Source: Cirrosporium novae-zelandiae (taxonomy: Eukaryota). From it: a DNA stretch of 64,000 nucleotides. The position numbers and the translations under genes are program-made. Shown piece after piece: positions 4,101 through 46,300 of this stretch. The DNA is taken from NCBI GenBank assembly GCA_026023565.1, contig JAPETS010000041.1, positions 1 to 64,000 on the forward strand, read 5' to 3'. Each line of letters begins with the position of its first letter. Within the stretch, counting starts at the first letter, position 1. The notes beneath the pieces were generated by a model. The model saw only the letters and a list, made by a program, of their open reading frames with translations, was not told the origin of the DNA and made no database searches.

Positions 4101-5303
4101 TTAAAACCCCGGTATCATTTTTGCTTGGGAATCATCAAGCTCCACCACCATTGGGGCATATTCTCCTGTTTCCTCATCTTCTTCAAAGTCATTGGTTTCC
4201 ATCTCAACCATCTCTCCATCTTCCAGCTCCAGCAATCCTTTTCTAACGTAGGAGCTGCTCAACTCCCATTTATATTGTGATTTCAGAAAGTCTTCCAATT
4301 CATCAAACTGCTCCTTCACAGGAAAGACGATGGCTTCACTGGACTCGTCCAGCGTCTTCTTCAGAGTCATCAGTAGCTTCTTCAATACTCCAGCCCCTTC
4401 ATCACTAAGATCAAAAAGGCCCCCTTCGACGTCATCGGAATGCTGGAGTTGCAACTGTAATATTCTGAGGAATTTAGTGAAGAATATAGGGTTCGTATGG
4501 ACAGCTTCCACACAAGTACAGAGAAGTTCAAGGATTCTTTTCCATTGCTCTAAACAGGAATAATTGGCAACTACGAGCATCATCAGAAAGCAGAACTGAA
4601 ATTCGCCGAGTATTTCGTATTGGTTGTCATCGTGGCAGTAGTTGTTGATGATATCCCCCAAAGCCCATGAGCGGTCTTTGGCGGCATTGGTCCTTTCTCT
4701 TCCAACAGCACCGTCTCGCCAGGTTTGCTTTAGGTCGAGGGGAAGGAAATGCAACTCTTTCTCTTCCTCGAGGGCGGATTCGGCCGAGGTCAGACCAGGT
4801 ATGTGATCTTGATCCCGTTTGGCAGAACTTGCAGAATCGATCGTCCAGTCATTGGCCGTGCCCCCTGTAATTCGGCAGAGTAAGGCAGCAGTGAGGTGTT
4901 CAGTCAAATCTTGCCAATCCTGGCGGTCCTCAGTCTCAAATTCCGAGCCCTTGGTAGCAGATTGACGATAAGGCGCAAGGCCATCTTTCCAGATTGCAGA
5001 TAAATTGGCCCGCCAACTCAGGGCCTCTGCTGCGTCGGCAGATTCCAACTCTTCTGCGGATGCGTTCCATTTCTTCACAATAATATTATCATAGACGGGG
5101 TGAGATTCATCAATGTAAAACCAAACTCCGTGGCGGAGGGAAAGAGAGTTAGTTGTTGCACAAAATAAAAAGTGCCAACCAGGCGGTAAATCCTTGATGC
5201 CTTGAAAACGTAATGAAGTAGTAAAAGACAAGAGGTCAATGCCACATAATGCTTGCCGGGGGAGATTTGCAACAATCAACGTGGGCGTTATTGTGGCGTC
5301 CAT
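4101..5303 (-). CDS. AAR2: U5 snRNP assembly factor AAR2
   Basis: 400-aa ORF with GIDLLSF..RFQGIKDLPPGWHF, ILGEFQFCFL, NYSCLEQWKRIL and C-terminal EETGEYAPMVV, typical of fungal AAR2. Confidence 0.9.
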   Translation of the reverse strand: MDATITPTLIVANLPRQALCGIDLLSFTTSLRFQGIKDLPPGWHFLFCATTNSLSLRHGVWFYIDESHPVYDNIIVKKWNASAEELESADAAEALSWRANLSAIWKDGLAPYRQSATKGSEFETEDRQDWQDLTEHLTAALLCRITGGTANDWTIDSASSAKRDQDHIPGLTSAESALEEEKELHFLPLDLKQTWRDGAVGRERTNAAKDRSWALGDIINNYCHDDNQYEILGEFQFCFLMMLVVANYSCLEQWKRILELLCTCVEAVHTNPIFFTKFLRILQLQLQHSDDVEGGLFDLSDEGAGVLKKLLMTLKKTLDESSEAIVFPVKEQFDELEDFLKSQYKWELSSSYVRKGLLELEDGEMVEMETNDFEEDEETGEYAPMVVELDDSQAKMIPGF

Positions 5304-17831: not shown

Positions 17832-20821
17832 AAAGCTCCTGCGCGCCATAATGTTATACATGTGTTTCTTGGAGAAAGATGGGAGGATATGAATAAATGT
17901 ATGGATGGATGGAAGTTATAGTAAATAGAGAGATAGATAGAAAACGGGGGCAGGGGGGTAGAACCCTGCCAGGCTATCATATCCTATCCAACCTACTACT
18001 AAGCAACTATATAATTACAAAGTAATACAACACCCTCTCTACCCTCTACCCTTCACTCCAAATCCAATCCAAAAATAACCCCCAATCCAGTTCCTCCTAA
18101 TCTCCTATCCTTTATCCCCTATCCCTATCCCCCACCAAACCCAAACAAATCACACAACGCAAAGGGAGAACTAACTACCTAACTACCTAGCAAAAAAAAT
18201 TCCCCAGCTACATGAGTCTCGAAAAAGAGGTAATTTTCTTTTCTTTTCTAAATTCCAAGTCTACATGTGATGATGATGAGAGTTATTTTTGTATGTATGT
18301 ATGTATAGGTAGATATATCATTATCATTAAATAAAAAATTTTTGGGTATTTTTGGTATTTTTGCTTTTTTTTAGACTTTTTTTTTGTTTGAGATTGTAAT
18401 GATGATGATGATGATGCTCCCTCCCTCGACCTATATATATATGTGTTTATGACTCCACATTTTTGATATTGATATCTTATTCTTTCAAGTTTTTGTTTTT
18501 TGTATCCAATCCATCAATCAATCCCAATTCCCAATCCCCATTCCAGGACTACGTCATGAGAAGGAGACCCTCACTACCCCGCCTTTAAAAAGGGAAATAT
18601 ATTCCTATTTGTACTCCGATTTTTGTTAGGAGTAGGCATCTTCTTCAAATATATATTATACTATTAAGTAGATACTGTACAGTACTATAACCATCCCCCT
18701 TGTTGTTGTTTTTATTTATTTATTTAGAGTACGCAGCTAATCTACCTAGAAGTGGTTTTATCCATATTACCTACTCACCCACATTCACATTTTTTTTTAG
18801 AGAGAGGATCCTGGTTGGTGGTATGGTTCGTGTGTTTTATTAAAAGCACGTTGGAGGGTAGGTAGAAATCTGAATCTGATCATTCGCTCGCTTTTTAAGT
18901 GAGGTCGGATACGTCCTAGATCTGGGGATCTATCTTCCCTTTATAGTAATTTCGTTTATATGTTTAAGATCTCTTGGTTGGTAATATAGTCTCCTACCCC
19001 ACTTAGACGGAGAATTGGTCCTGCAAGGCGCGGTGAATGGCTAGGAGCCATGGGTGATTGGTGGTCGATTGTATGTGACACAGAAAAGTGGATATGCAAA
19101 GCTGTAGAATTCTAAACTATGGATGCTATAACCTCAATTTTATATCTGTGATAGTATATTTAGGAGTTGGCATTGAGTGATTAGATGATTAGAAAAATTG
19201 GGTCATGTAATATCTTTATTAGGTTGTATTGAATCTATTTTATACGTATGGGGTTAGAGGTTGAAAAGTAGGGAGGTTTAAAAAATAGATGATGGAAATG
19301 GTTGTGTCAAAGTGATTGCATTTCTTGGTTGATCCCGGGTCCATCGATTAAATGTATTAAATTGGGATTAAGCATGTTTAGGATTATTAATACGGTCTTT
19401 TTTCGAACCACTCTAAAAATTCAGTTAACGAATGGGCGACTAGCCGCCTATATATCAAGAACAGAGCAGTTTTTAATACAAAAAAGTGAAGATGTAAGGC
19501 TATAGAATTGTGTCTATAGGATGATATATACAGTTTCTTGAAAATCTGGTACAAGTACTTTCTTTTTTGGCATTCGGCATGCAACATAGGTAAGGTAATC
19601 CAACTCTCGTTTGGCAGCTTCAAGGACTAGGCATGCTGGAACTCCTAGTGTATCTGAAGAGTTAAAGTATCATGAAGGAATATCATAAATAGGGTATAGT
19701 TGTATTAGCAAACAAAGCAACTTAAAAAACTATACAGAAGCATCGTGTTAGGGGCTAGTTGTTATGTGTAGAAGGGATGGTTATTTCTATCACCTATATC
19801 CTCTAGGGGTCCGTGCAAAGCAAAAAGGCTGAGGAGAAGGTCAAAAAGGCCTGAGATATATTGCTCAAGTCAAACATGGATAAATATATAGTAGAATTTC
19901 AATTAGAATAATATATAATTCTAGGAATGTAAGGCTGTAAGAGCTCGACTTAGTCATGGATGAGGTTTTGTCGTTCTAAATGACGAGCTAAAGTGTCGGT
20001 TTTGGTATCGCATGAGAGAATGAAAGGTTGTCAATGGTACTCTAACCTGATATTCATCGTATCACGAAGTAATTATGACTACAAATTCGTCCGCAAAATC
20101 ATACGGACTCGTTCATGGGAAAAGGGGTATACTCACGTAACTCACGGAAGGTGAACATGGAAAATTCTTCGAGAAAGCGGATTCTACGAGACATAAATGC
20201 TTACTCCGGAGGCCAAGATTCACTTCTACAATTCACTTCTGCGATTGTTTGCAATCCGCAAAGCTTGACTGCATAGTAGAATTTTCATTCTTACATTCAT
20301 TCACTATAGGTTACGGACCGTAACAAAGACGCTGTGGAAGTAATTAAATCTCAGGGTCCATCTTACCCCAACAGAGCGAGATAGATAAAGCTGTTCAGGT
20401 CGTGCTACTGGTCGGGAAGCTGATTGGCCAAGAGACGACAAGCTCACGATGCACGAAATCCAAACTTACTTCTTACCATCCCCCAGCCCATCTACACATA
20501 ATTGTGGCATCCAACCATATATTAATTTAGGACCACGCACATGTTCGTACTTAGGTCATTGACTCGTCTTATATCTTTCCTAAGTTAAGCCATAGCTTAA
20601 TTAAACCATCATGCTAGAGAAATTCCCTATCAAGGACATTATCTCATCCATACCAGGTTCCTAGTAGACTTTGGAATATTTTCTTCCCATTTTCCATTTT
20701 GGGTGGCTCACGATGCTTCTAATAGTGCTAAGCTTGAATAAACACAGAGTATATGGACCCTTTCAGTCGGCGCCTTGATCACAGGACTCCATTAACGGCC
20801 GTGAAACTGGGAAATCCACTT

Positions 20822-20846
20822 CTGGAGGGGCAATTGGAGGGGCAAC
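20822..20846 (+). promoter_or_regulatory. Tandem 12-mer TGGAGGGGCAAY x2 containing STRE (AGGGG) motifs upstream of BTA1
   Basis: ctggaggggcaattggaggggcaactggg about 130-150 nt before the BTA1 ATG; function inferred only. Confidence 0.35.
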
Positions 20847-20972
20847 TGGGTCAACGCTATCATTCCCTATAAGGATTGATATTCCAAATGTCCTTTCTAT
20901 CTCTTTCTCTTTTTCTTTGACTTTCTCTCTCATCATTTGCTGGTCTCATGGTTTCGTACAACTTGAAATAGA

Positions 20973-23900
20973 ATGAATTCTCTTCTAGTTATGAACTTTC
21001 CTGCGACATGGAACTTTGTTCCAACCAGTCTCCATTCCGAGATCGCTATTTGTGCATCTCTGGTTTTCCTTCTTATTGCTATCATCTTTACATATAGTTT
21101 TGCAAAGAGAAAAGGGGGCTCCGATTCTGGCTTCCATTCCTTCCTCTGGTTCTTCTATGCGAGCTTTCTAAAACCTCATGAAACGAGCGATGAGGGAGGA
21201 CAGCAGTTTTTTTTGGAGAGTTTCTACAAAGCGCAGGTATGGTCGCTCGTTTTTGACTGGTTCTGATAAAAATTAATCGTACTATTTAACTGCAGGCTTC
21301 CGTTTATGATTCTACACGCAAGAGACTCCTTCGAGGTCGAGAGGATATGCTTGGTTTAGTCGCAGCTCAGTTGAAATATAAGCTCAAGAAGAAGACGCTG
21401 GGCCGTTCGAGACCAGTTTGGGTTGATGTGGGTTTTCTAAATGGCCTTATAAGCAGCGATTGCTAACTTCTTTTCAGATTGGAGGAGGTACAGGGTAATT
21501 CAGCCAAATGCATTTCTTCTAACAAAAACTAAGATTCTCAGATACAATATTGAAGCGATGTCTGCATATGTTCCTGTTGAATCATTCTTCTCTAGGGTCT
21601 ATCTAGTTGATCTTTCACCATCGCTATGCGAAGTAGCCCGAAAGCGGTTTCAACGCCTTGGATGGGGAAATGTTATAGTTGTTTGTCAAGATGCAAGGAC
21701 CTTTCGTCTTGAGGAATATGAGCCTGGAAATGCAGTAGCTATATATTCGTCAGAAGGATGTTCTGAGAACAGCGGGGCCGATCTCATTACAATGAGCTAC
21801 AGCCTATCCATGATACCTGGTATACTATCATCAACCTGACATACAATTCAGCAAGGCTAACATGTGTTAGATTTCTACAGCGTTATTGACTCTCTCTCGT
21901 CGTTACTAAGCCCCTTTGGAACAATTGGCGTATGCGACTTTTACGGTAGGTGATATATCGACTTGAGAAGTACGTCTGGCTAAATTTGATATAGTACAAA
22001 GCATTGTGGATCTATCATCTAGAAACTATGTCGGAGGTGTTTTCAATAGACATGTCAATTGGCTTAGCAGAGTCTTCTGGCGAGCGTGGTTTGATGTTGA
22101 TCGTGTCAGCCTTGAAGGCGCAAGGAGGGATTATCTCGAATACCGGTTCGGGACTGTTCTTTCTGTGAGCGACCGAAACCATCTTCTTGGGTGGATCCCT
22201 TATTACATTTTTGTCGGCTGTCCTAAGAAGATTGCTTCTTTGAGAACAAGCTCCCCAGATTTCCCTCAGCAGGCTATTGAAGCTCTTGACGCCTCTTTTA
22301 CAGAATCACCATACCTATCACCAACACACCATCAAAATCAACAGTCTAAAGCTGCACGGAATAATTCACCAATCGGTATTCGGTCAAAAGCGTACGAGAG
22401 TGCAATTGTCAACCTGAGCGCAAATTTACCGTTGCCTTCAGCCTTCTATCAAAATGATCATTGGCGGATATTCTACAACGACCAATTGAAGAAGCATACA
22501 CAATTTGGAGACGAATATATCTATGCTTTCACCTGGGAGGATCCTCGTATTGACCATCGGCTTCTTAAAATTGGAAGTGACGACGTCATTCTTGCTATCA
22601 CAAGTGCAGGAGACAATATTCTAGACTACCTGCTTCATAACCCTCGACGGGTTCATGCAGTTGATCTAAACCCAAATCAGAACCACCTCCTCGAATTGAA
22701 GGTTGCTGCCTTTACGGCGCTTGGCTACGAAGGTGTTTGGAGGCTGTTCGGCGAAGGAAAACATTCCAAGTTCCGTGATCTCTTAATTTCGAAGCTAAGC
22801 TCACATATGTCAAGCCAGGCTTTTCAGTACTGGCTTGAAAATGCCAGCGTATTCTCTAATCCTCGTGGTATGGGCTTATATGAAACTGGCGGTTCTCGAG
22901 TTGCTATTAAGCTGGTTCGATATCTCTTTAAATGCTTCGGGCTATCTGCCACGGTCAAGAAGCTCTGCGAAGCGAAAACGTTGAACGAACAACGCGAAAT
23001 CTGGCCTCGGATCCGAAGCATTCTTTTGAGTCGGCCTCTTCATTGGGCTGTTATCTCGACGGAATGGTTCTGCTGGAAAGCTGCCGGTGTTCCTAAAGAA
23101 CAGTATCAAATGATCTTACAAGATCATGCTCGTCTGATGGGTATAGGATCCGCAGATAAGCAGAGTACCCTCGGGAATGGGGAAGCCGTCTGGGACTATG
23201 TCGTGAATACCTTGGATCCCATTGTTGAGAACACATTGCTCCGGGACGACAATTACTTTTATCTATTATGTCTCCAAGGAAAATATTCTAGACGGTACTT
23301 ATTTTGCTTAACCTCCGTATACTTTCGATAAACGAAAGCGACCAGACCCAAAAAACGAACCCAGACAAGTAACTTTAGGGAGGCCTTCAAGTTGAATTAT
23401 TATTGAAAACAGATTTCCTTTTGAAGGCCTCCCCAAGATCACTTTTCTAGTTCCACCTTTGGGCCTGGTCGTTTTCATTTCTACCTGTCGAGAGCAGAAC
23501 TCCGCTAATCTACTACAGATGCCATCCCGAGTATCTTACTCCTCGAACACATGCCAAATTTTCCAAGCTCAATGCCTTCGATGGCCTCAGGATACACACA
23601 GACGAAATAAATGAAGTGCTTACACGCATCACATCTGGTACATTAACAATTGCGGTTGTAAGTAGCTAACCTTCGCTTATATATTTTCCCTGAAATCAAT
23701 ATTTAACTAAAATAAAGATAATGGACTCTATGGACTGGTTCACGCCCTCCTCCCCTGCCGCGCAAATCCAAATATCTGCTCTCAACCGCGCTCTCAAGGC
23801 CGGTGGCCGCGTCCTCCTTCGCTCTGCTGGTCTTGATCCTTGGTATGTTAAGGTATTCGAGGAATGCGGGTTCACCACCCGGAGGGTCCAAGAGAGATTT

Positions 23901-24194
23901 CCAGGAAAATATGTAGACAGGTATGCCTTCCCTTTCTTCTCACCTTCTATTCCGCAAGTAACTTTCCTTTCTCGCCGCTCTAACATCATCTAAAGAGTAA
24001 ATATGTACGCCTCAACCTGGCTCTGCAAAAAAATCTCTGAAAACTTCACCCCAATCCCCACACCCATAACCCCAACAACCCGATCCAACAGTATCGACTC
24101 CTCGATCTGTCTCTCCCCATCCCCTTCTATCCACAGCCGTACCGGTAGCATCCACTCTTCCCCCTCCGCACCCATCACAGCCCTAGAAATATGA
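20973..24194 (+). CDS. BTA1: Betaine lipid (DGTS) synthase, BtaB-BtaA fusion, about 8 exons
   Basis: LESFYKAQ/ASVYDSTRKRLLRGREDML, WVD/IGGGTG, MSYSLSMIP, YIYAFTWEDPRID, LAITSAGDNILDY, AVDLNPNQNHLLELK, MDSMDWF, DR/VNMYAS. Confidence 0.93.
23330..23480. repeat. Imperfect long inverted repeat (fold-back / MITE-like) in BTA1 intron
   Basis: aaacgaaagcgaccagacccaaa pairs with tttgggcctggtcgttttcattt, and gggaggccttcaa pairs with ttgaaggcctccc, nested around an AT-rich loop. Confidence 0.85.
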
Positions 24195-24881
24195 CTCGCC
24201 GACATTTCCCCCCGCTTGAACATCCCTACGCACTCGCATTCTTTAAGCCATCATGGGCATTCAATGTCCGACGGCAGCATCGATTTGCTGGCGGTGAACA
24301 TGAGCATCCAGATGCGTGAAAATAACAGGACGCCTACACAAAGAGATTTCAATCGGTTCGGGGCGAAGACGCCGACGCCAAGAGGGGTTTTGGGAAGACG
24401 GGGACGTGCTAGAACGATCTGACGGCGATAGGAATGGTTGATATATGTTTTCCTTTTTTTTTGTATAGTTAGAGATACCACGCATGACATTATACATCAA
24501 ATCGAAAGTTTAATTTATGTTACACTGTAAAACACTTGCAAACAATCAGACCCTTTTCATTCATACCCCCTCGAGAAATCAACAACCAGCCGGTCCAACC
24601 CACACCCCAAATTCCTCTCACCCTACTTCCCCTTTCCCCTATCGCTCCCCCCAAAAAAACCCCTAGCCAATTATTCATTTCAACCATAGCTCCAAAAATA
24701 TTTTTTTACAATTGTCTATAATTTTTTTCTCTTGCAAAGCATAGAAAGTAAATCCACAAAAACCTACCTAATTACCCAACCGGGCTTCCCTTTTCCTTTT
24801 TCCATTTCCCATTTCCATCCAATAGGCCGACACGCCGGCCACCCCCACACAACAAAAAATCAAAAAAATTTCAATTTCTTT

Positions 24882-24969
24882 CGACGCCGACTGGATTTGA
24901 ACCAGTGCCTCCGAAGAGATGTGATTTCAAGTTCTAGTCACACGCGTTAGACCACTCCGCCACGACGTC
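24882..24969 (-). tRNA. tRNA-Ser(AGA) with a 6-nt intron (24931-24926)
   Basis: GACGTCG/CGGCGTC acceptor stem, G73, D-loop GAGTGGTCTAA, anticodon stem TGTGA/TCACA, loop CT-AGA-A[CTTGAA]A, long variable arm TCTC-TTCG-GAGG, T-loop TTCAAAT and a downstream oligo-T terminator. Confidence 0.9.
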
Positions 24970-25410
24970 CGTTTTGTTGAAGGGAGAGGTGGTGGGGTGG
25001 GTTTTGTTTAGGGAGTTTGAGGGTTTGGGGGTTTTTTTTGAGAAAGGGGAAAAATTATGAAATGAAGTTTTTGAGTGGGATGTTTTTGTTCTTTTTGGAG
25101 GGGGAGGGGGAAAGTTGTGTTTTTTTTTTTTTTTATGGTTTTGTGATTTATAATAATAGTTGGGATGGGATGGGATGGCAAATGATGGGATTTTATGGAT
25201 TGGAGATAAGGAAATAATAATAAGGTGGAATAAGAGAGGATAGTAGGATTAAGATATATTATTGGTTTATTGACTATGGGTAGGAGGGAGAGTGTGTGTG
25301 GTAGCTAGGTGGTTGTATTTATTTAGGAAACTGATTAAACGGGCTTCTCCTGTGGTTTTACAAACCAACCTAGCTAATCACAGGTTGGCCCTCGGTTTTT
25401 TTTACAGTCT

Positions 25411-26407
25411 CTACTCATGTACCCATTCGGGCTTCTTCTTTTCAGCAAATGCCGTCATACCAATCTTTTGATCCTTGCTTCCAAATAATGAATGGAATAC
25501 CCTCCTTTCGTACTCGACACCTTCCCTTACCCCAAGTTCTTGACTCTTATTTACCACCTCCTTCGCGGCCTTTACGGCTACCCGGGAATAGCTTGATATC
25601 GTCTCTGCGGTTTTCAGGGCCCCCTCAACGCACTCCTGGGCATTGGGGAAGCACCTAGCTGCCAATCCCCATTTCTCGGCTTCTTCGCCACTGAAATTCT
25701 TACCAGTCAATATCAACTCCATTGCTTTTGCTTTGCCAATGGCCTTGGTCAATCTTTGGCTTCCACCAGCACCCGGAATAATACCTAGCTTAATCTCTGG
25801 CTGACCAAAGGTAGCTGAACTGGAGCAATAAAGAATATCTGCCATCATAGCGAGCTCACACCCTCCGCCCAAAGCATACCCATTGACGGCTGCAATGATT
25901 GGTTTTTTTACTTGGGTTGTAAGAGCAGACCATAGTTCGATAAAATCGTTGCTGTAGGCACTAGAGAAGGTAAGGTCTTTCATCTCTTTGATATCGGCAC
26001 CAGCTGGGTTAGGAATGGGTGTTAGTTAGTCACATCATACCTCGCCTTTAGTTGTGAAGCGTACCGGCAAAAGCTTTCTCGCTACCTGTGATTACCATGG
26101 CACCTATATCCTCGTCTTCATTGAATTTTCGGAGAGCATCGTTCAGCTCCAGGTACAAAGGTGTGGAAAGGGCATTGAGAGCTTTAGGCCGATTGAGAGT
26201 AACTTTATACGGGTTCTGTCAGCCAAATGAGCAATAGATAAAATTCCGGTCAATTAAAAGCCTACTCAATCCGACTCCTGGTTTTGGTGTCGAAAGAAGT
26301 AAATACTTGTAGGAAGGAGATGCCTCCGTAGAATACTGCCGGAGTATGCGGATGGAAGATGGTTGAAATTTGGAGGCTACGGGCCGTAGAGCTCTAAGAG
26401 AAAACAT
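25411..26407 (-). CDS. Mitochondrial enoyl-CoA hydratase (crotonase, ECHS1/EchA-like), 3 exons
   Basis: Presequence-like [80 protein letters not shown]. Confidence 0.93.
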
Positions 26408-26839
26408 CCTTAGTAGATCAGATGAAGGTTATTATTATAGTAGAGATATGAATATCTTCAAACAAAGCCTGCACAGCAGACGGTGATAATCAACATGGAG
26501 ATTTCACGATGACCTAATGCTGGTGTTGAGAATATGCTCCGCATTTCAATTTTGGCCGAGACATCCCTGTTCAAGGGGCTCAATACGCTAGTGACATACT
26601 AAGCAGAATCGCGATTCTAGTGGTCCGTGCGCAGTCTGGGATTACGAAGTTTAACGCCAGCCTAAACTGTCTAAGGACAGTTTGCCATATTGAATCTCTA
26701 GATTTCTTCCAGACACAACTTTTCTAAATACTAGCCAACAGTCTATACATTCCCTTTCACCTCCTACAACCCACTTTCTTTATCCTGACTTTTGTATCAC
26801 CCGTAAAGTTGCCTTACTCCCAGGCAGCCTTCTCCTTCG

Positions 26840-27722
26840 ATGATGGACTCCCCGGAGCCCGAGACCCCTTTCGCAGCCGTGAGCGCGCACACATCGAGAA
26901 TAGGCAGAGTATGTGGATTTTATTACTTGCAATCTGTCGCATATTTGTTTTGACCCTGGTATTCCATTATATTGTCATCGTCAACTATTCTCAGCGATTT
27001 ATGAAGAAATCAACTGACAGTATGATCCTTATCTAGCAATACCAAGCCTATCTTGATAAATGTACTCCATATACGCTCTACCGCTGGCTTGCCACTGGTG
27101 CTTTCCTCGTCCTCTTCTTCCTTCGAGTCATCATTGCCCAGGGATGGTATGTCGGTATGTCTAGAGTCCATACCTCATAAGACCGCTCAGCCTGACCGAG
27201 TCTCCATAGTTGCCTACGCACTTTCCATCTTCCTTCTAAATCAGTTCCTCCTTTTCCTTCAACCTAAATTCGACCCCTCGCTCTCCGTCAGCACCGACCC
27301 TTCACTGGAAGAGGGAACTGCTGGAGAGACCAGTGAACCTGTCCTACCGACGAAACAAGATGAAGAATTTCGGCCATTTATCCGCCGCCTTCCTGAATTC
27401 AAGTTCTGGTACACTGCAACTCGGGGTATTGCTCTGAGTATCGTGGCCACGATGTTTGATTTCCTCGACTTGCCCGTATTCTGGCCTGTTCTGGTCGTCT
27501 ACTTTATAGTTCTATTTATGTTAACGAGTGAGCTACCCCTTGTTACCCCTTAATGTGGTTGATGAATTACAACGTGAAGCATTCATGAGCCTTCCCTGTT
27601 GAGAAAAACTCTAATCTTTATACTGCAAATTAGTGCGGCGTCAAATTCAGCACATGATTAAATATCGATACGTTCCGTTCACTTTTGGCAAGACTCGATA
27701 TGAAGGTCGAACTGAACACTAA
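26840..27722 (+). CDS. RER1: Golgi-to-ER retrieval receptor Rer1, 4 exons
   Basis: QYQAYLDKCTPY..RW, QGWYVVAYALSIFLLNQFLLFLQPKFDP, DEEFRPFIRRLPEFKFW, PVFWPVL, RRQIQHMIKYRYVPF. Confidence 0.95.
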
Positions 27723-28831
27723 GCAACCTTTTATCCTTCCTCCACACATATTAGCGATAGCACCTCCGATAATGTACCCAAACGAAAGACTAAACCACGA
27801 GGGTATTTCCAGATGGAGCCAATGTTGTCAAACAAAAATGGATACATTTCGGGAAGAAAGGCTAAAGTGGTGGCAATCAGTGGGAAAGAATGTGTTTACG
27901 TTTCGTTGTATTATATCTATCCGTTTGTCCGTTGCTACAGGCTCTAGGGGTGGCGGATTTCGATCTCAACGGTGTCGGCTAAGGGGATCTGTAACAAAGG
28001 GGAAACGGCGAAATATGTTGTTACGGATGATGGATGAGTGGGATAGCCGATATAAGGCGTACAATTGTTACAAAAGATATACGTTCTAATGAAGAGATCT
28101 CTACGTATTTATCTTCTACATATTGGGAAAAGGTGACGTTTGTCTATCACTTAGCATAGCTAATAGAGTAAGATAGGGACGAATATAGAATATATTAATT
28201 ATCTTTACCAAACTAGATATCAGGATACGGAAGAGCGCAAATATGAATACCCTTTAGAATGGGATTGGGGACACGGGGGCAGTAATCGAGCCAGCGTCTT
28301 TCTCACCTCGGGCAAATCTAATTGTTTGTGAGGTGTGCTTAATATAATAACGACATGGCCTCAATGCGCCCCTTGGCCGTGGCCTTTGACGCTAACAGGC
28401 GGGTGCTCCCGTAAACTGCTCCCCAGAGAAAGGAAGTTAAAGGTTTTCCTAATTCCTAAACCATCATCATCATTATCAAGTTGATAGCACACTATAGTCT
28501 GTCTTGTATATTTGTATGACTTGTCATATAATACTTGACACGCTTCTATGAGCGATATCAGCGTCTAGAATTCGGAATGTCCTATGCATGATCCTGTGCT
28601 ATGGCTAATTGTTTGCTTAGTCGCCTTTGCAGATTTAGCATTTGGCCTGCGCCGCCTGCATCTATTCACATATACCACTTGCAGCATTAGTTTTCTTGCC
28701 CGGGAATTACGGAAGGATTGGGGTACTGTTGTGTTACCGTCCAAAACGTCGAATATTTTTCCACATTTGTTTCTTTTGTTTTCCTGTCTTTCTACTCTAA
28801 ATATCATAACTTTGTTTCACAAACAGCAACG

Positions 28832-30269
28832 ATGGGAGATCAGATACAACCGGATATCAACATTCCCCTGGTGGCAGATGTGACCTTAAGTCTTTCTTTT
28901 TTTATCTAGCTTTTGTCTGACACCTTCTAGGATGTTGGCTATGACTCCGCTTTCGAAGATAGGTAGGTATTACCTGAACTCAGGTATCCGGCCAATAATT
29001 ATGACTATGTGCAGCTAAGCCTATACAAATAACAGCGACAACAAATCATATACAACCTCCCTTGCATCCAGTGTTATGAACTACAAGCAAGTTTTGCCTA
29101 TCCATCGCTTGCACGTCCATTGAACTAATTTATTGGCCTAGATATGAGGTAGACTTTAGACATTCAAATTTCGATTATCTCTTAACAAATATATAGAATG
29201 GTCGGAGATACCATGCTTTCCATGAAGGCAAATATGTACTGGTATAATCCCATTGACCAAATGAGTTTGATATTGAAAGCTTATGTTCTCAGCCCAACGA
29301 TGAGCAAGAGCAGGACCGGATTGATCTGGTAATAATACTCCCGAATACCGCCATAGATATTTTTAATACTCATACCATGGAACCAGCTTGCCCATTCTTT
29401 CAGGGTACTCAATGGAGGAGCGCATTTTCGTGCTCAGATATCGAATGATGCTCACAGGATACTTGATATTGGAACTGGAACTGGTATATGGGCTATTGAC
29501 GTTGCAGAGTAATCTCCCACCGTTTTAGATATTTAGAGTTGTTTTTAACGGCCTTTTCAGCGAATATCCTAGTGCCGAAGTTACTGGTAAACACTAATCA
29601 AAAAATTCAGCTTACGGTTATTAACCAACACAAGGTACTGATTTATCCCCGATTCAACCTTCATGGGTTCCTCCAAACTGCCACTTCATTGTTGATGACG
29701 TCGAATCACCTTGGGCCTGGACTGAGAGTACACCGTTTGATTACATTCACGGACGCAACTTAGCCGGCAGTATTAAAGATTGGGAAGAACTCCTCAAAAC
29801 ATGCATGAGACATTTGGGATCTGGCGGATGGGCTGAATTCCAAGAAATTGAATTCAACATATGTTCTGACGATGATACTGCCAAGGAAGCAAAGCAACTC
29901 CAGGAATGGAGGAAGCTTACAATTGCCGCAAGCGAGAAGTTTGGGAGAAGCATGAATGTTGCAGGGGACTTGAAAAAGTCGTTCACGGATGCAGGGTTTG
30001 AAAACATAAAGGATGATGTTTTTAAGCTCCCCATCGGCCCCTGGCCTAAGAATAAAAAATTAAAGGAGCTTGGAGCTTTTGGGCGACAAAACACGATTGA
30101 TATTGTCGAGCCGGCTGCCCTGGCTTTGTTAACTCGTGTATCAGGATGGAGCAATGAGGAGGCTCAGGTATTCTTTGCAAGTGTCCGCCAGGAAATTAAG
30201 GATCCGAAACTGCATCTCTATTGGAGGGTTCATTTTGTTTATGGACAGAAGCCCAAAACAGTGGCTTAA
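28832..30269 (+). CDS. LaeA-like SAM-dependent methyltransferase, about 9 exons
   Basis: TSLASSVMNYK/YE/NGRRYHAFHEGKYVL/PNDEQEQDRIDL, ILDIGTGTGIWAIDVAD, GTDLSPIQPSWVPPNC, FKLPIGPWPK; GC-AG intron 29087-29141 and 7-nt exon 29142-29148. Confidence 0.9.
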
Positions 30270-38295: not shown

Positions 38296-38408
38296 GGTGG
38301 AGTGGCCTAATGGTAAGGCGTGGCTCTCCTAGAAATTTCTTACTCCGGATTTGTCCGGGGGGGAAAGTCTAAAAGCCAAGATTGTGGGTTCGAGTCCCAT
38401 CTTCATCG
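38296..38408 (+). tRNA. tRNA-Arg(CCT) with a 41-nt intron (38332-38372)
   Basis: GGTGGAG/CTTCATC acceptor, TGGCT/AGCCA anticodon stem, loop CT-CCT-A[intron]A, GTGGG-TTCGAGT-CCCAT T arm, immediately followed by TTTTT; intron folds (CTCCGGA/TCCGGGG). Confidence 0.92.
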
Positions 38409-39865
38409 TTTTTGGGGAGTTTTTGTTTTTGGGGGTTTGGAGGTGGGATGGGTGGATGGATAGAGTTGAATGCTGGGTAGGTAGGTATACTTACTTTACT
38501 TGCATATATTTATACCTTATGTTATTTTTTCTTTGGTTTTGGAGGTTTAAGAGTGTATGTTTATTTGATTTGGGGAAGACGAAAAATAATTAGAAGCGAA
38601 TGTAAGTTGTGAGGTCAAAATTAAGTTGCTGATTTGAATAACAATCCCATCTCCAATAGCACATGAGGTTCACTATACAATCTAACCCAACACCCTCTCG
38701 CAATTTATTCCCTCAAGAACTCCTTGTCGCTTTTGTTCTACCATGTTCCCTGCCCGATCGTTTGCCGTGATTACTTCCTCCACGAACAACTCCACTAGTA
38801 TTGGCATCATTGCCTTCCTGAGATTTATTTTTTTTGGATTTATCTCGGACAGTTTTCTAAAGATAAGGGCTATATATCAGTAACAGTCCCTTTGAAGGGG
38901 GAAATAAATCAATAGAAAGACATACGACGATATAACCAATACACAGCATTTTGAGGGCAGCAGGAATTGCTTTCGAATAAAAGGTTAGATTTGAAGGTAG
39001 TTCTTGGGTATATAAGGTAGACAATTATATTGTAAAGGGTCTGTAGTAGGTTGTATAGCCGGGCTTTTGGTAGAAGAGTGAGGACATCTATAGCAGAGCC
39101 AAAGGCCTGATTTATATAGATTTGAGACGGTGACAGAGAAGTAGGCGCTAATACATCCCTCTATCAGCCGCATCATCTAAGATTTAGCTACATTCGCCTT
39201 TTTGGACCTCATTCAAAAATAATCTCAGCTAGAGGTCGTATTCTTCTCCAGTTTGGTCCTTTTCTGAGCATTGCTCGCGGCATGGGATGAAATAGGTTAG
39301 CGCCAAGAGATTATCTTTACTTATCAGAGAAGGCTGCGCGAGCACCCCGCCAGTAATGTTCCAATATAATTAACGCCATGAATAGATTGTTGGAAAAATC
39401 GAATCTTTGTAGGTATGATTATGTGCTTCTAAGTCCCATCTGCCTGTCTTCTTTTGCTTGAGCCTCACCGTATCTAGGCTACAAGGCTGATATTCTATTA
39501 TACCTCATGTAGGTAAATAAAACATAGATGATTACTTTCGAAAAGTAGCCATCTTAGAAACAGCCATCACTAAATGAAGGTAGGGAAGCTGATTTGTTCG
39601 TTTACTCATAGTGGCCTCTGCCTTTAAGCAGATTCTCCATCAACTTTCTTTCCACACCAAGAACCATGGCAATTTCATATACCAAAATTGTAAACTCAGT
39701 AGCCCTCACGAATAGTGCAACTAATAACGATTCCGCTTTAGTGACCCCTAGCAAAATAATCATCTTTACCTGTATGCAAACTTTACGTCGCAACTTGACT
39801 TGTCTTACTTTGTACACTTTCCATGGTCTAACCATCCTAGATCTAATAATCACAATATACCCAAT

Positions 39866-41946: not shown

Positions 41947-44900
41947 ATGGCTCCCCGAGTCGAAAACCGCGATACTCGACCAACAGTATCAGATCTTCAA
42001 GGCGATAATCATTGGACAGAGCTGGCCAAGAAATATTGGTTGAAGAATACAACCGTCAAGAAAGCGAGCCAGGATGTTCTTAAAATTCAGATATGGGATG
42101 CTCTCGAGGCTGAACAGTTTGCAGCTAAGTCATTACTCATCTTAGAAACTCTCCAAATACTTGAAAAGTAATATCTAGAGCTTTATTTATTATGATTGTG
42201 CAATAATTGACACTCTTTTAGATACCTCTGGCCAACTTATAATGGAGACTCCTCGAATTTTCACGTTCTATTAATCGCATTGATCGTTGATATTAAAAGA
42301 AGGGAACAACTGCCGACGTGGGGTATATTCTACTGATTCCCATTATATATGTACTTTCTAAACGATCCCAAGCTAATTAATCGCAGACCATTTCAAAGGA
42401 AAGCCCCAAGAATTTTCTTCTCTTTTCCGTCGACTCCTTTCTATGAGCTTAGACGAAAGCTTAGCGACATCAGTACGGCTACATGTGTTGTCGTTCATCA
42501 ATGGAGCTTTCGAGTCACTTGATAGTGGGATGATCCGGAAGGAGTGCGCCCCCTTAGTTTCGATATCAATATGGCATAATCTCCATGATAACAAGGCCCG
42601 CGAAACGAAATTAGAGCAAGCAAGTCCTCTAAGAAAAGCATGGCGTGCAGCTAGCAAGCGGTTTGACGGTGCCGACAAAACGAATCAAGCAAAGCTACGA
42701 TTTGATCGTTCTTGGTTATACTCTATGGTTTTAGGCTTCCTAGGTCGCCTTTACGACCCCCAAGGGAAACGCAGTGATAATGTGATGTATTGCGAACGAT
42801 TCATTGAGTTCCTCGTGACATTAGTCTCTCAATTTCAAACGAGGCGCTATGTGAATACTATGCTGCTTGACTTGAACATTTTATCTGTGATAAAGCTTTC
42901 ACCCCTTTTCGACGATGATGAAAACGGGCTCTTTAGAGATTTCTTCAGCCTCCTTCGGCATTTCGTCACCTTTCCCATGAACGATTTCACAGGTGGTCAA
43001 CTATCACCAGCAGATAATTACAACATCCATTGCCAAAACTTGGCTCGCCTTCAAAGAACAGCAATTAAACACTTCAAGGAGAAACTCACGATATTGGCAC
43101 TTTCAAATTATGCGTCCATTGATGTGCGAGAAGAGCTGCAAAACCATCTTAATGCTTTAGATGACGTCGAATTATCCCAATTATGCAATTTATTAGGCTT
43201 CAGGACGGAGTATCCTCAAACAACCCCCGTTGTGACTGATCGAAAGTTTCTCTGCGAAATCTTGATAATGGCCTTTGAGGGGAGGAAACCGTTTCAAGAA
43301 GTTGCGTCAAGTACTAGCGTCTTGCCCACAGAAGAAGCGCTCTATGAACCAGCCTTGCTACGAAATGAATCATTTGATGGCTCAAGGCCATTAGCCATAC
43401 CGAAACTTAATCTACAATATCTTACAGTTGGAGACTTTCTGTGGCGTTCCTTTATCCTGTATCGCTCGGAATCTTTCTTCGAGATCCGAAGAGATATGGA
43501 AGACGCCTTAAAGCGAATCCAACCGAAGAGTTCTCGCAACGCTTCAAATGTTCAATTTGATGGATTTTCAAAGATGGCTCTTCCAATATCAAAACCTGCC
43601 ATCCTCGAAATTGTACCGCCTAGGGTTGGCTTTGATGAACCCTCCCTTGTTCGAGCTGAAATTTCTCTGGACATAACTCATCTCGGCCCAAATGTCCGAC
43701 AAGAGTGGGATTCCCTCCGTCCAGATGACGCTGTATTCTTGCTTGCGGTTCGGTCCAGCGATGATCCATTGTTTGTGGCAAACGGTCTAACAGCTCGAAG
43801 CGAAGCAGGCAAGCACGGAATCGTTACTCTACGTGCTGCAGAGGTTTTGCAAGTTCTTAACAATGATGGTAAACCTCTCAGGGAAACACATATTGGGCAA
43901 GCCAATGGGCACGGCCCTAGACCATCGATACGCAGACTCCAACTAAAACTAGATGCTGCAATGTACAAAATAGACACTGAACTTGCTGGTCAAGGGAAGC
44001 CTGACCCATACGAGGCGATAAATCTCATTGTCCGACGGCGAGGACGGGAGAATAATTTCAAGTCCGTACTTGAATCCATAAGGTCACTGATCATATCTGA
44101 TTTTCCAATGCCTTCGTGGCTTCAAGAGGTCTTTCTAGGGTATGGAGATCCGAGTAGTGCAAATTACAAACGGTTACCTAGCAAACTTACAACTGTTAAT
44201 TTTCGGGACACTTTTCAAGATTGGCAACATCTTGTAGAGAGTCTACCGGGCAAGACAGTTGTCCCGTTTGATGCGACAAGGTCCAGCTTCGGGCCTCCTT
44301 ATGTTCTACAGAATTTCATCGACGCTGCGCCTGTGACAGAGCTCAATCCATCTAAAAAACGGCGCAGAGATCAGGTCGATACCCCTCCTCACAACCAGGA
44401 CTCGATCAAGGTATCCACGTACAAGACAGAGAACACTGGACCATATCCTACCGATGCTCCTAAACTAAATCATATACGCTTCACCCCTGCGCAGGTAGAA
44501 GCAATCACTTCGGGGACTGAGCCTGGCTTGACTGTTATCGTCGGACCTCCTGGGACTGGCAAAACCGACGTTGCTACTCAGATTATAAATAACCTTTACC
44601 ATAATTTCCCGAATGAACGGACATTGATCATTACACACAGCAACCAAGCGCTCAATCAATTATTCCAAAAGATTATATCACTTGATATAGATGAGCGACA
44701 TCTCTTGCGTTTGGGGCACGGCGAAGGGGATCTTGAAACTGAAACAAATTACAGCAAGTACGGTCGGGTTGAGTCCTTTCTTGACAATCGTGCTTTGTAC
44801 TTAACCGAAGTTGACCGCTTGGCAGCCAGTATTAGAGCGCCCGGCGCTCATGGCGGATCCTGCGAAACTGCCGGATACTTTAACCAAGTTTACATAAAGC

Positions 44901-46300
44901 CTGCTTGGACAAATTTCTGGGAAAAGGCTAGGTCACCAGAAAGCAGTATCCCTGATATCATCCAAGCTTTCCCATTCCATGCATATTTTTCAAATGCACC
45001 CCAATCCCTGTTTTCTCTAGATGCTCCTACGGAATCGTTATTGGACATCGCTGCAGGATGTGAGAAACACATGCAGAAAATCTTTTCAGAGCTTGAAGAT
45101 ATCAGACCCTTTGAGATTCTTCGAACACCAAAAGACAAAGCGAATTATCTCCTGACAAAGGAAGCGAGGATTATCGCAATGACCTCAACTCATGCTGCAA
45201 TACGAAGACAGGAGATCTCGAAACTTGGCTTTCATTATGATAGCGTTATTATGGAAGAAGCAGCTCAGGTAACAGAGATTGAGAGTTTTGTTCCATGGGC
45301 GTTGCAGAATTCAAAGAATGGTGATCTCCCTTTAAAAAGAGTTGTGCTCTGCGGAGACCACCTTCAAAACTCTCCTATCATCGAGAATCTTGCTTTCAGA
45401 CAATATGCCAACATGGAACAGAGCCTATTCCTCAGACTTGTGAGACTCGGAGTCCCCATTGTTAACCTAGACCAGCAAGGACGTGCCAGAGCCAGTATTG
45501 CTGAGCTGTACAAATGGCGTTATCACAAGCTTGGGAATCTGCCTATAGTCAAAACCGCACCGGAGTTTCTACGGGCAAATGCAGGGTTCCGCTACGACTA
45601 TCAATTCATCAATGTCCCTGATTACAAGGGAGCGGGAGAACGAGAACCGTCACCTCATTTCATCCAGAACCTCGGCGAAGCGGAATACGCCGTTGCACTA
45701 TTTCAATATATGCGTCTCCTTGGATATCCGAGCTCCAAGATTACAATTCTGACGCCATATGCCGGTCAAAAAGCCCTAATAAAAGACGTCCTGAACCATC
45801 GTTGTGCTAAGAACTATCTGTTTGGATTACCACGGTTAATTACCACGGTGGACAAATACCAAGGAGAGCAAAATGACTACGTTATCCTTTCCTTGACTCG
45901 CACTAAGCGAGTCGGGTACCTTCGGGACGTTCGACGTCTCACGGTTGCGCTATCGCGAGCTCGACTGGGTGTTTATATACTGGGTCGAAGAGATGTGTTC
46001 GAATCATGTTATGAACTTAAGCCGGCTTTTGATGTTCTATTTCAACGATCAGATAAGCTCATGCTTGTGACGAGCGAGATGTACCCCACAACCAGGCTTG
46101 TTGATGCAGACGTCGAAAGCACTCCTATGGAAAGTGTGGAGCATCTAGGACAGTATGTCTATGAAATGACCCAGGCGAAAGTGGCGGCCTTGTCGACGGA
46201 TGGAGGCACGATGGATGTGGAAACTACAAATGACGTGGTGGTGGAAGAAGATGATGAAGAGGAAATGACCAGGGAGGCGACCATGCAGGAGCTCGAATAA
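41947..46300 (+). CDS. AQR: Intron-binding RNA helicase Aquarius (Cwf11/IBP160), 3 exons
   Basis: LETLQILEK/YLWP, LAIPKLNLQYLT, VGPPGTGKTDVATQII, THSNQALNQLF, MEEAAQ, QNLGEAEYAVALFQYMRLLGYP, TVDKYQGEQND. Confidence 0.95.

What the first reader, a model, noticed from the sequence alone, without database searches (positions are those of the whole stretch)
24882..24969. tRNA-Ser with a 6-nt intron that duplicates the anticodon loop and carries a second Ser anticodon
Seen: the anticodon region reads TGTGA-CTAGAA-CTTGAA-A-TCACA, two tandem hexamers differing only at the wobble base (AGA vs TGA). Established: eukaryotic tRNA introns sit after position 37 and the third-last intron base pairs with base 32. 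CTTGAA satisfies this (G opposite C32), so canonical splicing gives Ser(AGA), and 6 nt is at the extreme short end of tRNA introns. Inference: the intron may have arisen by tandem duplication of the loop. Removal of the first hexamer instead would give a perfect Ser(UGA) loop, so one gene might yield two isoacceptors or record an anticodon-switch intermediate.
Basis: partly seen in the sequence, partly recalled or inferred. Interest (0 to 1): 0.72.

Follow-up and report, generated by a model that had tools for sequence, protein, structure and literature searches.

The report
Serine tRNA gene with six-base intron
A normal-looking fungal serine tRNA gene carries a six-base insert just after its anticodon that looks like a fresh copy of the neighbouring bases, perhaps a glimpse of how tRNA introns are born, but nothing suggests it makes two different tRNAs.

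Summary
A class II tRNA-Ser gene lies on the minus strand at 24969..24882. Its anticodon loop has 13 nt and reads CTAGAA-CTTGAA-A.

The extra six bases sit exactly at 37/38. They meet the one conserved sequence rule for eukaryotic tRNA introns: a pyrimidine at -6 of the 5' splice site pairs with a purine at -3 of the 3' splice site, here C32 with G. Canonical splicing gives only Ser(AGA).

Six nt is the lower bound already on record, 6-133 nt. About half of predicted fungal tRNA genes have introns.

New here:
- Contigs of a DNA run that may be the window's own source fit four near-identical gene copies. Three lack the insert and one, the window's, has it.
- Metagenome relatives with the same tRNA core are all AGA. 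Two lack an intron and one has a 25-nt intron at the same site.

This favours a young 6-bp tandem duplication of loop bases 32-37 plus one A-to-T change. It argues against a recorded anticodon switch. A Ser(UGA) product would need a 5' cut 4-6 nt upstream of the measured site and is unsupported. No RNA data were obtainable.

The parts
24882..24969 (-). Whole tRNA-Ser(AGA) gene, 88 nt, with a long variable arm and G at the discriminator position
   Evidence: ARAGORN; Rfam RF00005 at 48.1 bits; sequence read. Among the window gene and three metagenome relatives, 7 of 26 stem pairs keep pairing through changes on both sides and none is broken.
24932..24969 (-). 5' exon (bases 1 to 37 in tRNA numbering, 38 nt). 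It ends with the loop hexamer CTAGAA (24937..24932), which holds anticodon AGA.
   Evidence: Sequence; ARAGORN places the anticodon at linear position 35.
24926..24931 (-). Six-base insert CTTGAA at 37/38: the putative intron, a 5-of-6 copy of the hexamer before it. Its fourth base, G (24928), is -3 of the 3' splice site and can pair with C32 (24937).
   Evidence: Sequence; labelling and energies; the same six letters are 'left out' in 2 contigs of run X1 and 1 contig of run X2 (table 4).
24882..24925 (-). 3' exon (A38 to the discriminator G, 44 nt): 3' strand of the anticodon stem, variable arm, T arm and acceptor 3' strand
   Evidence: Sequence; alignment with L001-L003.
24952..24962 (-). 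A-box-like internal promoter element, TGGCGGAGTGG
   Evidence: Read. The consensus it is compared with is recalled, not tested by a tool.
24893..24903 (-). B-box-like internal promoter element, GGTTCAAATCC, in the T arm
   Evidence: Read. The T loop is invariant in the 4 aligned genes. The consensus is recalled.
24862..24868 (-). Run of 7 T on the gene's strand, 14-20 nt after the 3' end: a likely RNA polymerase III terminator
   Evidence: Sequence. That T runs end Pol III transcription is established knowledge (recalled).

Best explanation
This is a real nuclear tRNA-Ser(AGA) gene of a fungus-like eukaryote, one of about four near-identical copies. In this copy alone, six extra bases sit between positions 37 and 38.

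The insert most likely arose at the DNA level as a tandem duplication of anticodon-loop bases 32-37 (CTAGAA), followed by one A-to-T change. Such a duplication lands at the canonical intron site. Its fourth base is a copy of G35, so it also supplies the purine at -3 that pairs with C32. The transcript therefore already has the geometry that the eukaryotic splicing endonuclease needs.

The expected course (inferred, not shown) is: Pol III transcription, cuts after A37 and before A38, ligation by the fungal ligase, and an ordinary tRNA-Ser(AGA) identical to the product of the insert-free copies. No Ser(UGA) is expected from it.

Shown: the sequence anatomy, the fit to the splice rule, insert-free sister copies, and relatives with and without an intron at the same site. 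Inferred: transcription, splicing, and the direction of change (gain rather than loss).
For: Gene reality:
- ARAGORN and Rfam both call it.
- Against three metagenome relatives, 7 of 26 stem pairs covary and 0 are broken. The D arm, anticodon arm and variable arm are invariant.
- A T7 run lies 14 nt downstream.

Intron rule:
- The only conserved feature is a pyrimidine at -6 of the 5' splice site pairing with a purine at -3 of the 3' splice site (passage).
- Here that is C32 with G. The three bases A, A and A38 are left as a bulge holding the 3' site, at -2.6 vs -3.0 kcal/mol for the open loop.
- Length 6 lies inside the recorded 6-133 nt range.

The organism has tRNA introns: a tRNA-Arg(CCU) 13 kb away carries a 41-nt insert at the same site.

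A relative, L002, with the identical tRNA core has a 25-nt insert at 37/38 with G at -3.

Sister copies, from contigs of run X1 (single-copy depth about 360):
- Two records lack exactly these 6 letters: 55 nt at depth 425 with 0 other letters, and 48 nt at depth 667 with 2 other letters.
- A 51-nt record at depth 1266.7 fits the insert-free form letter for letter. The model predicts 1 mismatch in the first 44 letters and 7 unaligned letters, as seen.
- Its depth fits 3 insert-free copies plus one copy that diverges at 24929: expected 1246-1263, against 1076-1090 for three copies only.

Duplication: 5 of 6 identity with the adjacent hexamer, p = 0.005-0.016 at a fixed site.
Against: - No RNA evidence of any kind, so transcription and splicing are untested.
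- The window's own insert-bearing path (24933-24940) was not itself among the contigs laid. Its presence in the reads is inferred from depth arithmetic only, and X1 may be the very data the window was assembled from.
- The copy count (3 + 1) is my reconstruction from short contigs, not a genome-wide tRNA scan.
- Direction is not proven. No orthologous locus of a close relative could be fetched. Loss of a short intron from three copies by gene conversion would leave the same picture.
- The duplication needs a second event, the A-to-T change.
- A 0.5-1.6% chance resemblance is not negligible in a scan of very many windows.
- Only 3 relatives were found. L001 and L003 are nearly the same sequence, so effectively there are 2.
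- The tRNA-Arg(CCU) insert in the same window has U, not a purine, at -3. The pairing rule is therefore not strictly kept in this organism, or that boundary is read differently.
Confidence: 0.55

Rival explanations
1. Old intron worn down to 6 nt. The gene family once carried a longer canonical intron, like the 25-nt one in relative L002. It shrank to the minimum the enzyme tolerates, and three of four copies then lost it through a spliced-RNA copy or gene conversion. On this reading the likeness to the loop is chance plus the forced G at -3.
For: - A relative with the same tRNA core has a 25-nt intron at the same site.
- About 50% of predicted fungal tRNA genes have introns (passage).
- Loss is regarded as easy, and gene conversion among tRNA copies is documented (section read).
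- With G at -3 fixed, the remaining match has p = 0.0156, which is not vanishing.
Against: - The 5-of-6 match to the immediately adjacent hexamer is what a tandem duplication predicts and is unlikely otherwise.
- MAFFT aligns only short pieces of the two inserts, so no convincing homology to the L002 intron is seen.
- L001, L003 and the one contig laid from organism B (X2) lack the six bases.
Confidence: 0.25
2. Crippled copy. The 6-bp duplication is a recent neutral or harmful mutation in one of four redundant genes. The transcript is not spliced, or only poorly, and a tRNA with a 13-nt loop is discarded. The gene is on its way to being a pseudogene. This is compatible with the duplication origin and differs only on function.
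For: - Three insert-free copies make this one dispensable.
- There is no evidence of expression.
- No study of a 6-nt tRNA intron was found in the searchable library (2 papers, both unrelated). Six nt appears only as the lower bound of a database range.
Against: - Every sequence feature known to be required for cleavage is present.
- The enzyme reads mainly the mature body and the distance to the splice sites, not the intron sequence (passages).
- The promoter-like boxes and the terminator are intact.
Confidence: 0.25
3. Dual-product gene. Alternative excision registers give both Ser(AGA) and Ser(UGA) from one gene, or the insert preserves an ancestral UGA anticodon.
For: - Removing six bases in 3 of 8 registers would leave a perfect CTTGAAA loop.
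- No Ser(UGA)-type record with this body was laid from X1 at 80% or higher likeness, and 0 of 3 metagenome hits had T at the wobble although the pattern allowed it. A separate UGA gene with this body is therefore not in evidence. That is weak: absence in these data proves nothing.
Against: - The UGA registers need a 5' cut after base 31, 32 or 33. The eukaryotic enzyme sets the cut by distance from the tRNA body and cleaves at 37/38 (passages).
- No alternative anticodon-intron pair or bulge-helix-bulge can form in a 13-nt loop; the minimum-energy fold leaves the loop open.
- The insert-free paralogue with 0 other letters and 3 of 3 relatives are AGA, so UGA is not ancestral.
Confidence: 0.03
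4. Assembly artefact: the extra hexamer is an error of the assembly and the locus is an ordinary insert-free gene.
For: No contig of X1 carrying the double hexamer was among the 10 laid. The bins at 24928-24939 are covered only by insert-free forms laid across it.
Against: - Four copies enter the shared 3' half (depth 1100 + 363) and only three leave as insert-free forms (425 + 667).
- The 51-nt record's mean depth fits a fourth copy that diverges exactly at 24929.
- Contigs of this kind drop minority branches, as the tool text says.
- X1 holds 0.99 of the sampled words of 20001-30000.
Confidence: 0.03

Closest known systems
Canonical protein-spliced introns of eukaryotic nuclear tRNA genes (SEN/TSEN substrates; bulge-helix-loop with the anticodon-intron pair)
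   Same: - Sits between 37 and 38.
- A pyrimidine at -6 of the 5' site (C32) can pair with a purine at -3 of the 3' site (G).
- The 3' site lies in a 3-nt bulge next to the anticodon stem.
- The length is within the recorded 6-133 nt.
   Different: - It sits at the very bottom of the length range.
- There is no intron helix at all.
- The sequence is a near copy of the preceding loop bases, rather than complementary to them.
- By my reading, it is present in only one of about four otherwise near-identical copies. Reviews say genes for one isodecoder usually all have an intron or all lack it, and that mixed families usually have different origins.
tRNA-Ser(AGA) gene with a 25-nt intron in metagenome contig locus L002
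   Same: The D arm, anticodon arm, anticodon AGA and variable arm are identical. The insert is at the same 37/38 site, with G at -3.
   Different: - The L002 insert has 25 nt, with an internal 6-bp hairpin.
- It shows no clear sequence homology to the 6-nt insert.
- The acceptor and T stems differ through compensatory changes, so it is another organism.
Proposed recent intron gains in yeasts: tRNA-Ala(UGC) of Lachancea thermotolerans and tRNA-Gly(UCC) of Kluyveromyces lactis (Yoshihisa 2014, section read)
   Same: A lineage-restricted intron at the canonical site in a tRNA whose relatives lack one. It is taken as evidence that eukaryotic tRNA introns can be young.
   Different: In those cases no mechanism could be named; the review calls DNA-level routes hard to imagine and proposes RNA cleavage, extension and reverse transcription. 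Here the insert's own sequence points to a plain DNA tandem duplication, and insert-free sister copies still coexist.
Archaeal bulge-helix-bulge tRNA introns
   Same: Removed by homologous endonucleases, most often at 37/38.
   Different: They need a 3-nt bulge, a 4-bp helix and a 3-nt bulge, and the shortest on record is 11 nt. A 13-nt loop cannot form this, and the minimum-energy fold leaves it open.

Membership tests
Eukaryotic nuclear class II tRNA-Ser gene | Cloverleaf that matches the tRNA covariance model | tested here: met
   RF00005 at 48.1 bits against gathering score 29, full model 1-71. ARAGORN calls tRNA-Ser aga.
Eukaryotic nuclear class II tRNA-Ser gene | Long variable arm and G at the discriminator position (serine identity; the rule itself is recalled) | tested here: met
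   A 13-nt variable region with a 3-bp stem and a TTCG loop, and G after the acceptor stem.
Eukaryotic nuclear class II tRNA-Ser gene | Stems kept by compensatory change in relatives | tested here: met
   7 of 26 pairs changed on both sides and 0 broken, in 4 sequences of which 3 are distinct.
Eukaryotic nuclear class II tRNA-Ser gene | Pol III signals: internal A and B boxes and a downstream T run | tested here: inconclusive
   Box-like sequences and a T7 run at +14 were read by eye against recalled consensus. No transcription data.
Canonical SEN/TSEN-spliced tRNA intron | Insert lies between positions 37 and 38 | tested here: met
   The 13-nt loop is CTAGAA + 6 + A. Insert-free relatives and paralogues read CTAGAAA.
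Canonical SEN/TSEN-spliced tRNA intron | Anticodon-intron pair: pyrimidine at -6 of the 5' site with purine at -3 of the 3' site | tested here: met
   C32 and the fourth insert base G. Rule as quoted. The paired structure is -2.6 vs -3.0 kcal/mol for the open loop.
Canonical SEN/TSEN-spliced tRNA intron | Length within the range seen in eukaryotes | tested here: met
   6 nt, against a recorded range of 6-133 nt (Yoshihisa 2014 citing GtRNAdb; passage seen).
Canonical SEN/TSEN-spliced tRNA intron | Actually excised and the exons ligated in the cell | not testable with these tools
This needs tRNA sequencing, Northern blot or RT-PCR.
Canonical SEN/TSEN-spliced tRNA intron | The host uses such introns | tested here: met
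   The tRNA-Arg(CCU) at 38296-38408 has a 41-nt insert at the same site. The endonuclease genes themselves were not looked for, because no genome was held.
Archaeal-type bulge-helix-bulge intron | 3-nt bulge, 4-bp helix and 3-nt bulge around the splice sites | tested here: not met
   The minimum-energy and centroid folds of the arm leave all 13 loop bases unpaired. There is no room for a 4-bp helix.
Gene giving two isoacceptors by alternative excision (no known family) | A second excision register that the enzyme's distance rule allows | tested here: not met
   The UGA loop needs a 5' cut after base 31, 32 or 33. The enzyme cuts at a fixed distance, at 37/38.

The most novel reading that the evidence does not exclude
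The gene is a snapshot of a tRNA intron being born by a plain DNA slip. A tandem duplication of anticodon-loop bases 32-37 places the new bases exactly at 37/38. In tRNAs whose base 35 is complementary to base 32 (as in Ser-NGA, with C32 and G35), it also creates the anticodon-intron pair. The insert is then spliceable from the first generation and can later drift and grow.

This would answer, for at least some cases, the open question of how eukaryotic tRNA genes gain introns at the canonical site. It also predicts that the shortest introns should be enriched in loop copies and in anticodons with a base 35 that pairs with base 32.
Probability: 0.45. Interest if true: 0.6.

Novelty: new member of a known kind. 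Interest (0 to 1): 0.38.

Why it matters
Two reviews treat the way eukaryotic tRNA genes acquire introns at 37/38 as unsolved. One finds DNA-level routes 'difficult to imagine' and proposes an RNA cleavage, extension and reverse-transcription route. [quoted passage not shown]

A gene family in which one of about four near-identical copies carries a minimal insert that is a near copy of the adjacent loop would be such a snapshot. It would give a mechanism that can be tested across genome databases.

If the resemblance is chance, this is simply one more very short fungal tRNA intron and is ordinary. The eye-catching idea that one gene makes two serine isoacceptors has no support.

Tried and rejected
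**Whole genome.** None is held for this window. A genome-wide tRNA scan, a search for a separate Ser(UGA) gene and a look for the endonuclease genes could not be done.

**Sequencing runs.**
- No RNA holder was listed.
- Only one DNA holder, X1, was found. It may be the source of the window, so it is not independent.
- X2 and X3 are other organisms of the same study.

**Read laying.**
- No contig with the window's own double hexamer was laid over 24933-24940. A part without cover proves nothing.
- Nothing was laid from X3.
- Table 3 listed no 'other letters', although records 2 and 7 carry 2 each and record 5 carries 1. The differing bases of the paralogues therefore remain unknown.

**Record 5.** I first read it as a possible insert-free Ser(UGA) gene. 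I rejected that after modelling it, where it fits the insert-free AGA form exactly.

**Metagenome loci.** The genome search on L001-L003 failed because the records are not held. Other tRNA genes of the relatives could not be read.

**Whole-gene minimum-energy fold.** It is not a cloverleaf and has z = -0.83. This is uninformative, as is usual for single tRNA sequences.

**L002 insert.** It contains short stretches like the loop and the D arm (CTGAAAT, TAACGC). I judged these chance: about 0.4 six-letter matches are expected by my own arithmetic, with no tool run.

**Literature.**
- The phrases 'duplication of the anticodon' and 'repeat of the anticodon' occur in none of the 15 papers listed of the 33 that one search found.
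- Six phrases for very short tRNA introns gave 2 papers, both unrelated.
- Marck et al. 2006 on hemiascomycete tRNA genes is not held.
- These searches cover only the held open-access library, and supplements were not consulted.

**Earlier findings of this scan.** Five look-ups found nothing that bears on this gene.

**Lineage.** It was not pinned down. The Pfam content (Aquarius, AAR2, Tfb2, Timeless, catalase, 2EXR) and ORFs that begin inside domain profiles point to an intron-bearing fungus-like eukaryote. I ran no further search on taxonomy.

Full report
**1. What is there**

ARAGORN finds one tRNA in the window: tRNA-Ser, anticodon aga, at 24882-24969 on the minus strand. Rfam's tRNA model matches the same span at 48.1 bits against a gathering score of 29, with 10 unmodelled letters in the anticodon loop.

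Read on the minus strand, the gene has:
- a 7-bp acceptor stem;
- a D arm;
- a 5-bp anticodon stem, TGTGA/TCACA;
- a 13-nt loop, CTAGAA-CTTGAA-A;
- a long variable arm with a TTCG loop;
- a T arm;
- G at the discriminator position.

Seven T follow 14 nt downstream.

In window coordinates:

| Part | Coordinates |
|---|---|
| 5' exon | 24969..24932 |
| Six extra bases | 24931..24926 |
| 3' exon | 24925..24882 |

**2. Is the repeat more than chance?**

- A hexamer matching its neighbour at 5 or more of 6 positions has p = 0.0046 with equal base use.
- The figure is p = 0.0156 if the G at -3 is taken as forced by the splice rule.
- In this low-complexity-rich window, 849 of 63988 positions (1.33%) show such a pair.

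For one pre-chosen site this is unusual. For a scan of very many tRNA genes it is suggestive at most.

**3. The host**

No genome is held. The large ORFs carry Aquarius, AAR2, Tfb2, Timeless, catalase, a purine/cytosine permease and a 2EXR domain. Several ORFs start inside the domain profile, which suggests spliceosomal introns. This is a fungus-like eukaryote, and I did not narrow it further.

A second tRNA, Arg(CCU), lies at 38296-38408. It has a 41-nt insert after base 37 that folds into a strong hairpin (z = -3.1). The organism therefore has ordinary tRNA introns.

**4. Fit to the known splice rules**

From papers, passages seen:
- The eukaryotic endonuclease recognises the mature tRNA body and measures the distance to the splice sites. 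It also needs the anticodon-intron pair in a bulge-helix-loop context. The yeast enzyme cleaves only at 37/38.
- The one conserved sequence feature is a pyrimidine at -6 of the 5' site pairing with a purine at -3 of the 3' site. Breaking it abolishes 3' cleavage and restoring it rescues cleavage (Sekulovski 2021).

In this gene, -6 is C32 and -3 is the G of CTTGAA. With that pair formed, the last two insert bases and A38 make a 3-nt bulge that holds the 3' site. This structure costs -2.6 kcal/mol against -3.0 for the fully open loop, so it is readily accessible.

Canonical cutting leaves CTAGAAA, that is Ser(AGA).

Six nt is the lower bound of the range quoted for eukaryotic canonical introns, 6-133 nt from GtRNAdb (Yoshihisa 2014). 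About half of predicted fungal tRNA genes carry an intron. An intron in a fungal Ser(AGA) gene, even one of 6 nt, is therefore within what is on record.

**5. Sister copies in the same organism**

The only sequencing run holding the region, X1, is DNA. It may be the window's own source, and it is kept as k-mer contigs. Laying X1-X3 on 24876-24975 at 80% or higher likeness placed 10 records from X1, 1 from X2 and 0 from X3.

- Single-copy flank contigs have depth 358-363.
- Two X1 records lack exactly six letters at 24926. One is 55 nt at depth 425 with 0 other letters. The other is 48 nt at depth 667 with 2 other letters.
- A 51-nt record at depth 1266.7 was laid without a gap, with 1 other letter and 7 loose letters.

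Modelling showed that the 51-nt record is the insert-free form, 24889-24925 joined to 24932-24945. The model has the same length, shows 1 mismatch in the first 44 letters, and 5 of its last 7 letters disagree, which explains why they were left loose. Ten of its 21 k-mers are shared with the window's form. Its expected mean depth is 1246-1263 if three insert-free copies and one insert-bearing copy exist, against 1076-1090 for three copies alone.

The inflow also balances. Depth 1100 + 363 enters the shared 3' half and 425 + 667 leaves as insert-free forms, so one copy's worth departs at the insert.

My reading is four near-identical Ser(AGA) genes, three without the six bases and one with them. 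Such contigs drop minority branches, so this is indirect read-level support and not independent of the assembly. The single X2 contig, from another organism, also lacks the six bases and has 7 other letters.

**6. Relatives**

I scanned the metagenome collection once, for the anticodon arm with any wobble base and 0-30 extra bases. It gave 3 loci.

| Locus | Anticodon | Insert at 37/38 |
|---|---|---|
| L001 | AGA | none |
| L003 (nearly identical to L001) | AGA | none |
| L002 | AGA | 25 nt, with G at -3 |

ARAGORN missed L002, so I read it by eye and by alignment.

All four genes share an identical D arm, anticodon arm and variable arm. The acceptor and T stems differ by compensatory changes: 7 of 26 pairs changed on both sides, and none is broken. 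This is a live tRNA family in which introns at 37/38 come and go. None of the 3 hits had T, C or G at the wobble position.

**7. Origin**

Two histories fit the data.

(a) Gain. A 6-bp tandem duplication of bases 32-37 occurred in one copy, followed by one A-to-T change.

(b) Loss. An old intron shrank to 6 nt and was then lost from three copies.

History (a) explains the 5-of-6 identity directly. It also has a neat property. The duplicate lands at 37/38, and its fourth base is a copy of G35, which pairs with C32. The anticodon-intron pair therefore comes for free in Ser-NGA tRNAs.

History (b) is favoured by the general view that loss is easy and gain is hard and by the L002 intron. It must, however, treat the resemblance as a 0.5-1.6% coincidence.

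I put (a) at roughly 0.6-0.65 and (b) at 0.25-0.3. Polarity could not be tested, because no syntenic locus from a close relative could be fetched.

**8. The two-isoacceptor idea**

Of the 8 ways to remove six consecutive loop bases:
- 3 give CTTGAAA (UGA);
- 4 give CTAGAAA (AGA);
- 1 gives CTAGAAC (AGA).

The UGA registers need the 5' cut after base 31, 32 or 33. That is 4-6 nt upstream of the site fixed by the enzyme's distance rule, and there is no alternative pair or bulge to guide it. A bulge-helix-bulge cannot form in 13 nt.

The insert also cannot record an ancestral UGA anticodon. The insert-free paralogue with 0 other letters and 3 of 3 relatives read AGA. I give this reading about 0.03. 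It is not excluded, because no RNA data exist.

**9. Function**

If the transcript is spliced, the product is identical to that of the sister copies, so the gene adds dosage only. Whether it is spliced is inferred from the rules, not shown. With three intact sister copies, the gene could equally be a tolerated cripple, which I put at about 0.25-0.3.

From memory rather than from any call: A34 of eukaryotic tRNA-Ser(AGA) is normally deaminated to inosine.

**10. Novelty**

The object is a member of a known kind: a canonical, very short fungal tRNA intron. Two things are not in the papers I could search.

- A mixed family. Its copies appear to share one origin yet differ only by the insert. This differs from the review's statement that such mixtures usually have different origins.
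- An insert whose sequence names its own mechanism. The phrases 'duplication of the anticodon' and 'repeat of the anticodon' occurred in none of the 15 papers listed of the 33 that one search found. Six phrases for very short tRNA introns gave only 2 unrelated papers.

These searches cover only the held open-access library, and a key comparative paper was not held.

**11. Verdict**

| Question | Result |
|---|---|
| Observation | confirmed |
| Canonical reading | supported |
| Duplication origin | plausible, and strengthened by the sister copies |
| Dual-isoacceptor and anticodon-switch readings | unsupported |
| Interest | modest; it rests on the value of the gene as a possible snapshot of intron birth |

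Noticed in passing
window 38296-38408 (+): A second tRNA gene, Arg(CCU), has a 41-nt insert after base 37 that folds into a strong hairpin (-23.8 kcal/mol, z = -3.1). ARAGORN missed it and Rfam found it at 52.3 bits. Its third-last insert base is U, so the usual pyrimidine-32 to purine(-3) pair is not obvious here. Five T follow the gene directly.
   Followed up: partly
window 24980-25130 and 38410-38450 (+): On the plus strand, both tRNA genes are followed by G+T-rich low-complexity tracts (runs such as GGTGGTGGGGTGGG and TTTTTGGGG). For the Ser gene this tract lies upstream of the gene; for the Arg gene it lies downstream. Near-tandem hexamers are about three times more frequent in the window than equal base use predicts (1.33% vs 0.46%).
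   Followed up: no
L002 218-242 (+): The 25-nt insert of the metagenome relative holds a perfect 6-bp hairpin (AATTTC/GAAATT). It also has short stretches like the tRNA's own loop and D arm (CTGAAAT, TAACGC). I judged these to be chance, but they would be worth a look if more relatives become available.
   Followed up: partly
window 42443-46300 (+), 4101-5303 (-), 56650-57795 (-): Genes for an Aquarius-type intron-binding helicase, AAR2 and a 2EXR-domain protein lie in the window. Several large ORFs begin inside their Pfam profiles, which suggests spliceosomal introns in the genes of this window.
   Followed up: no
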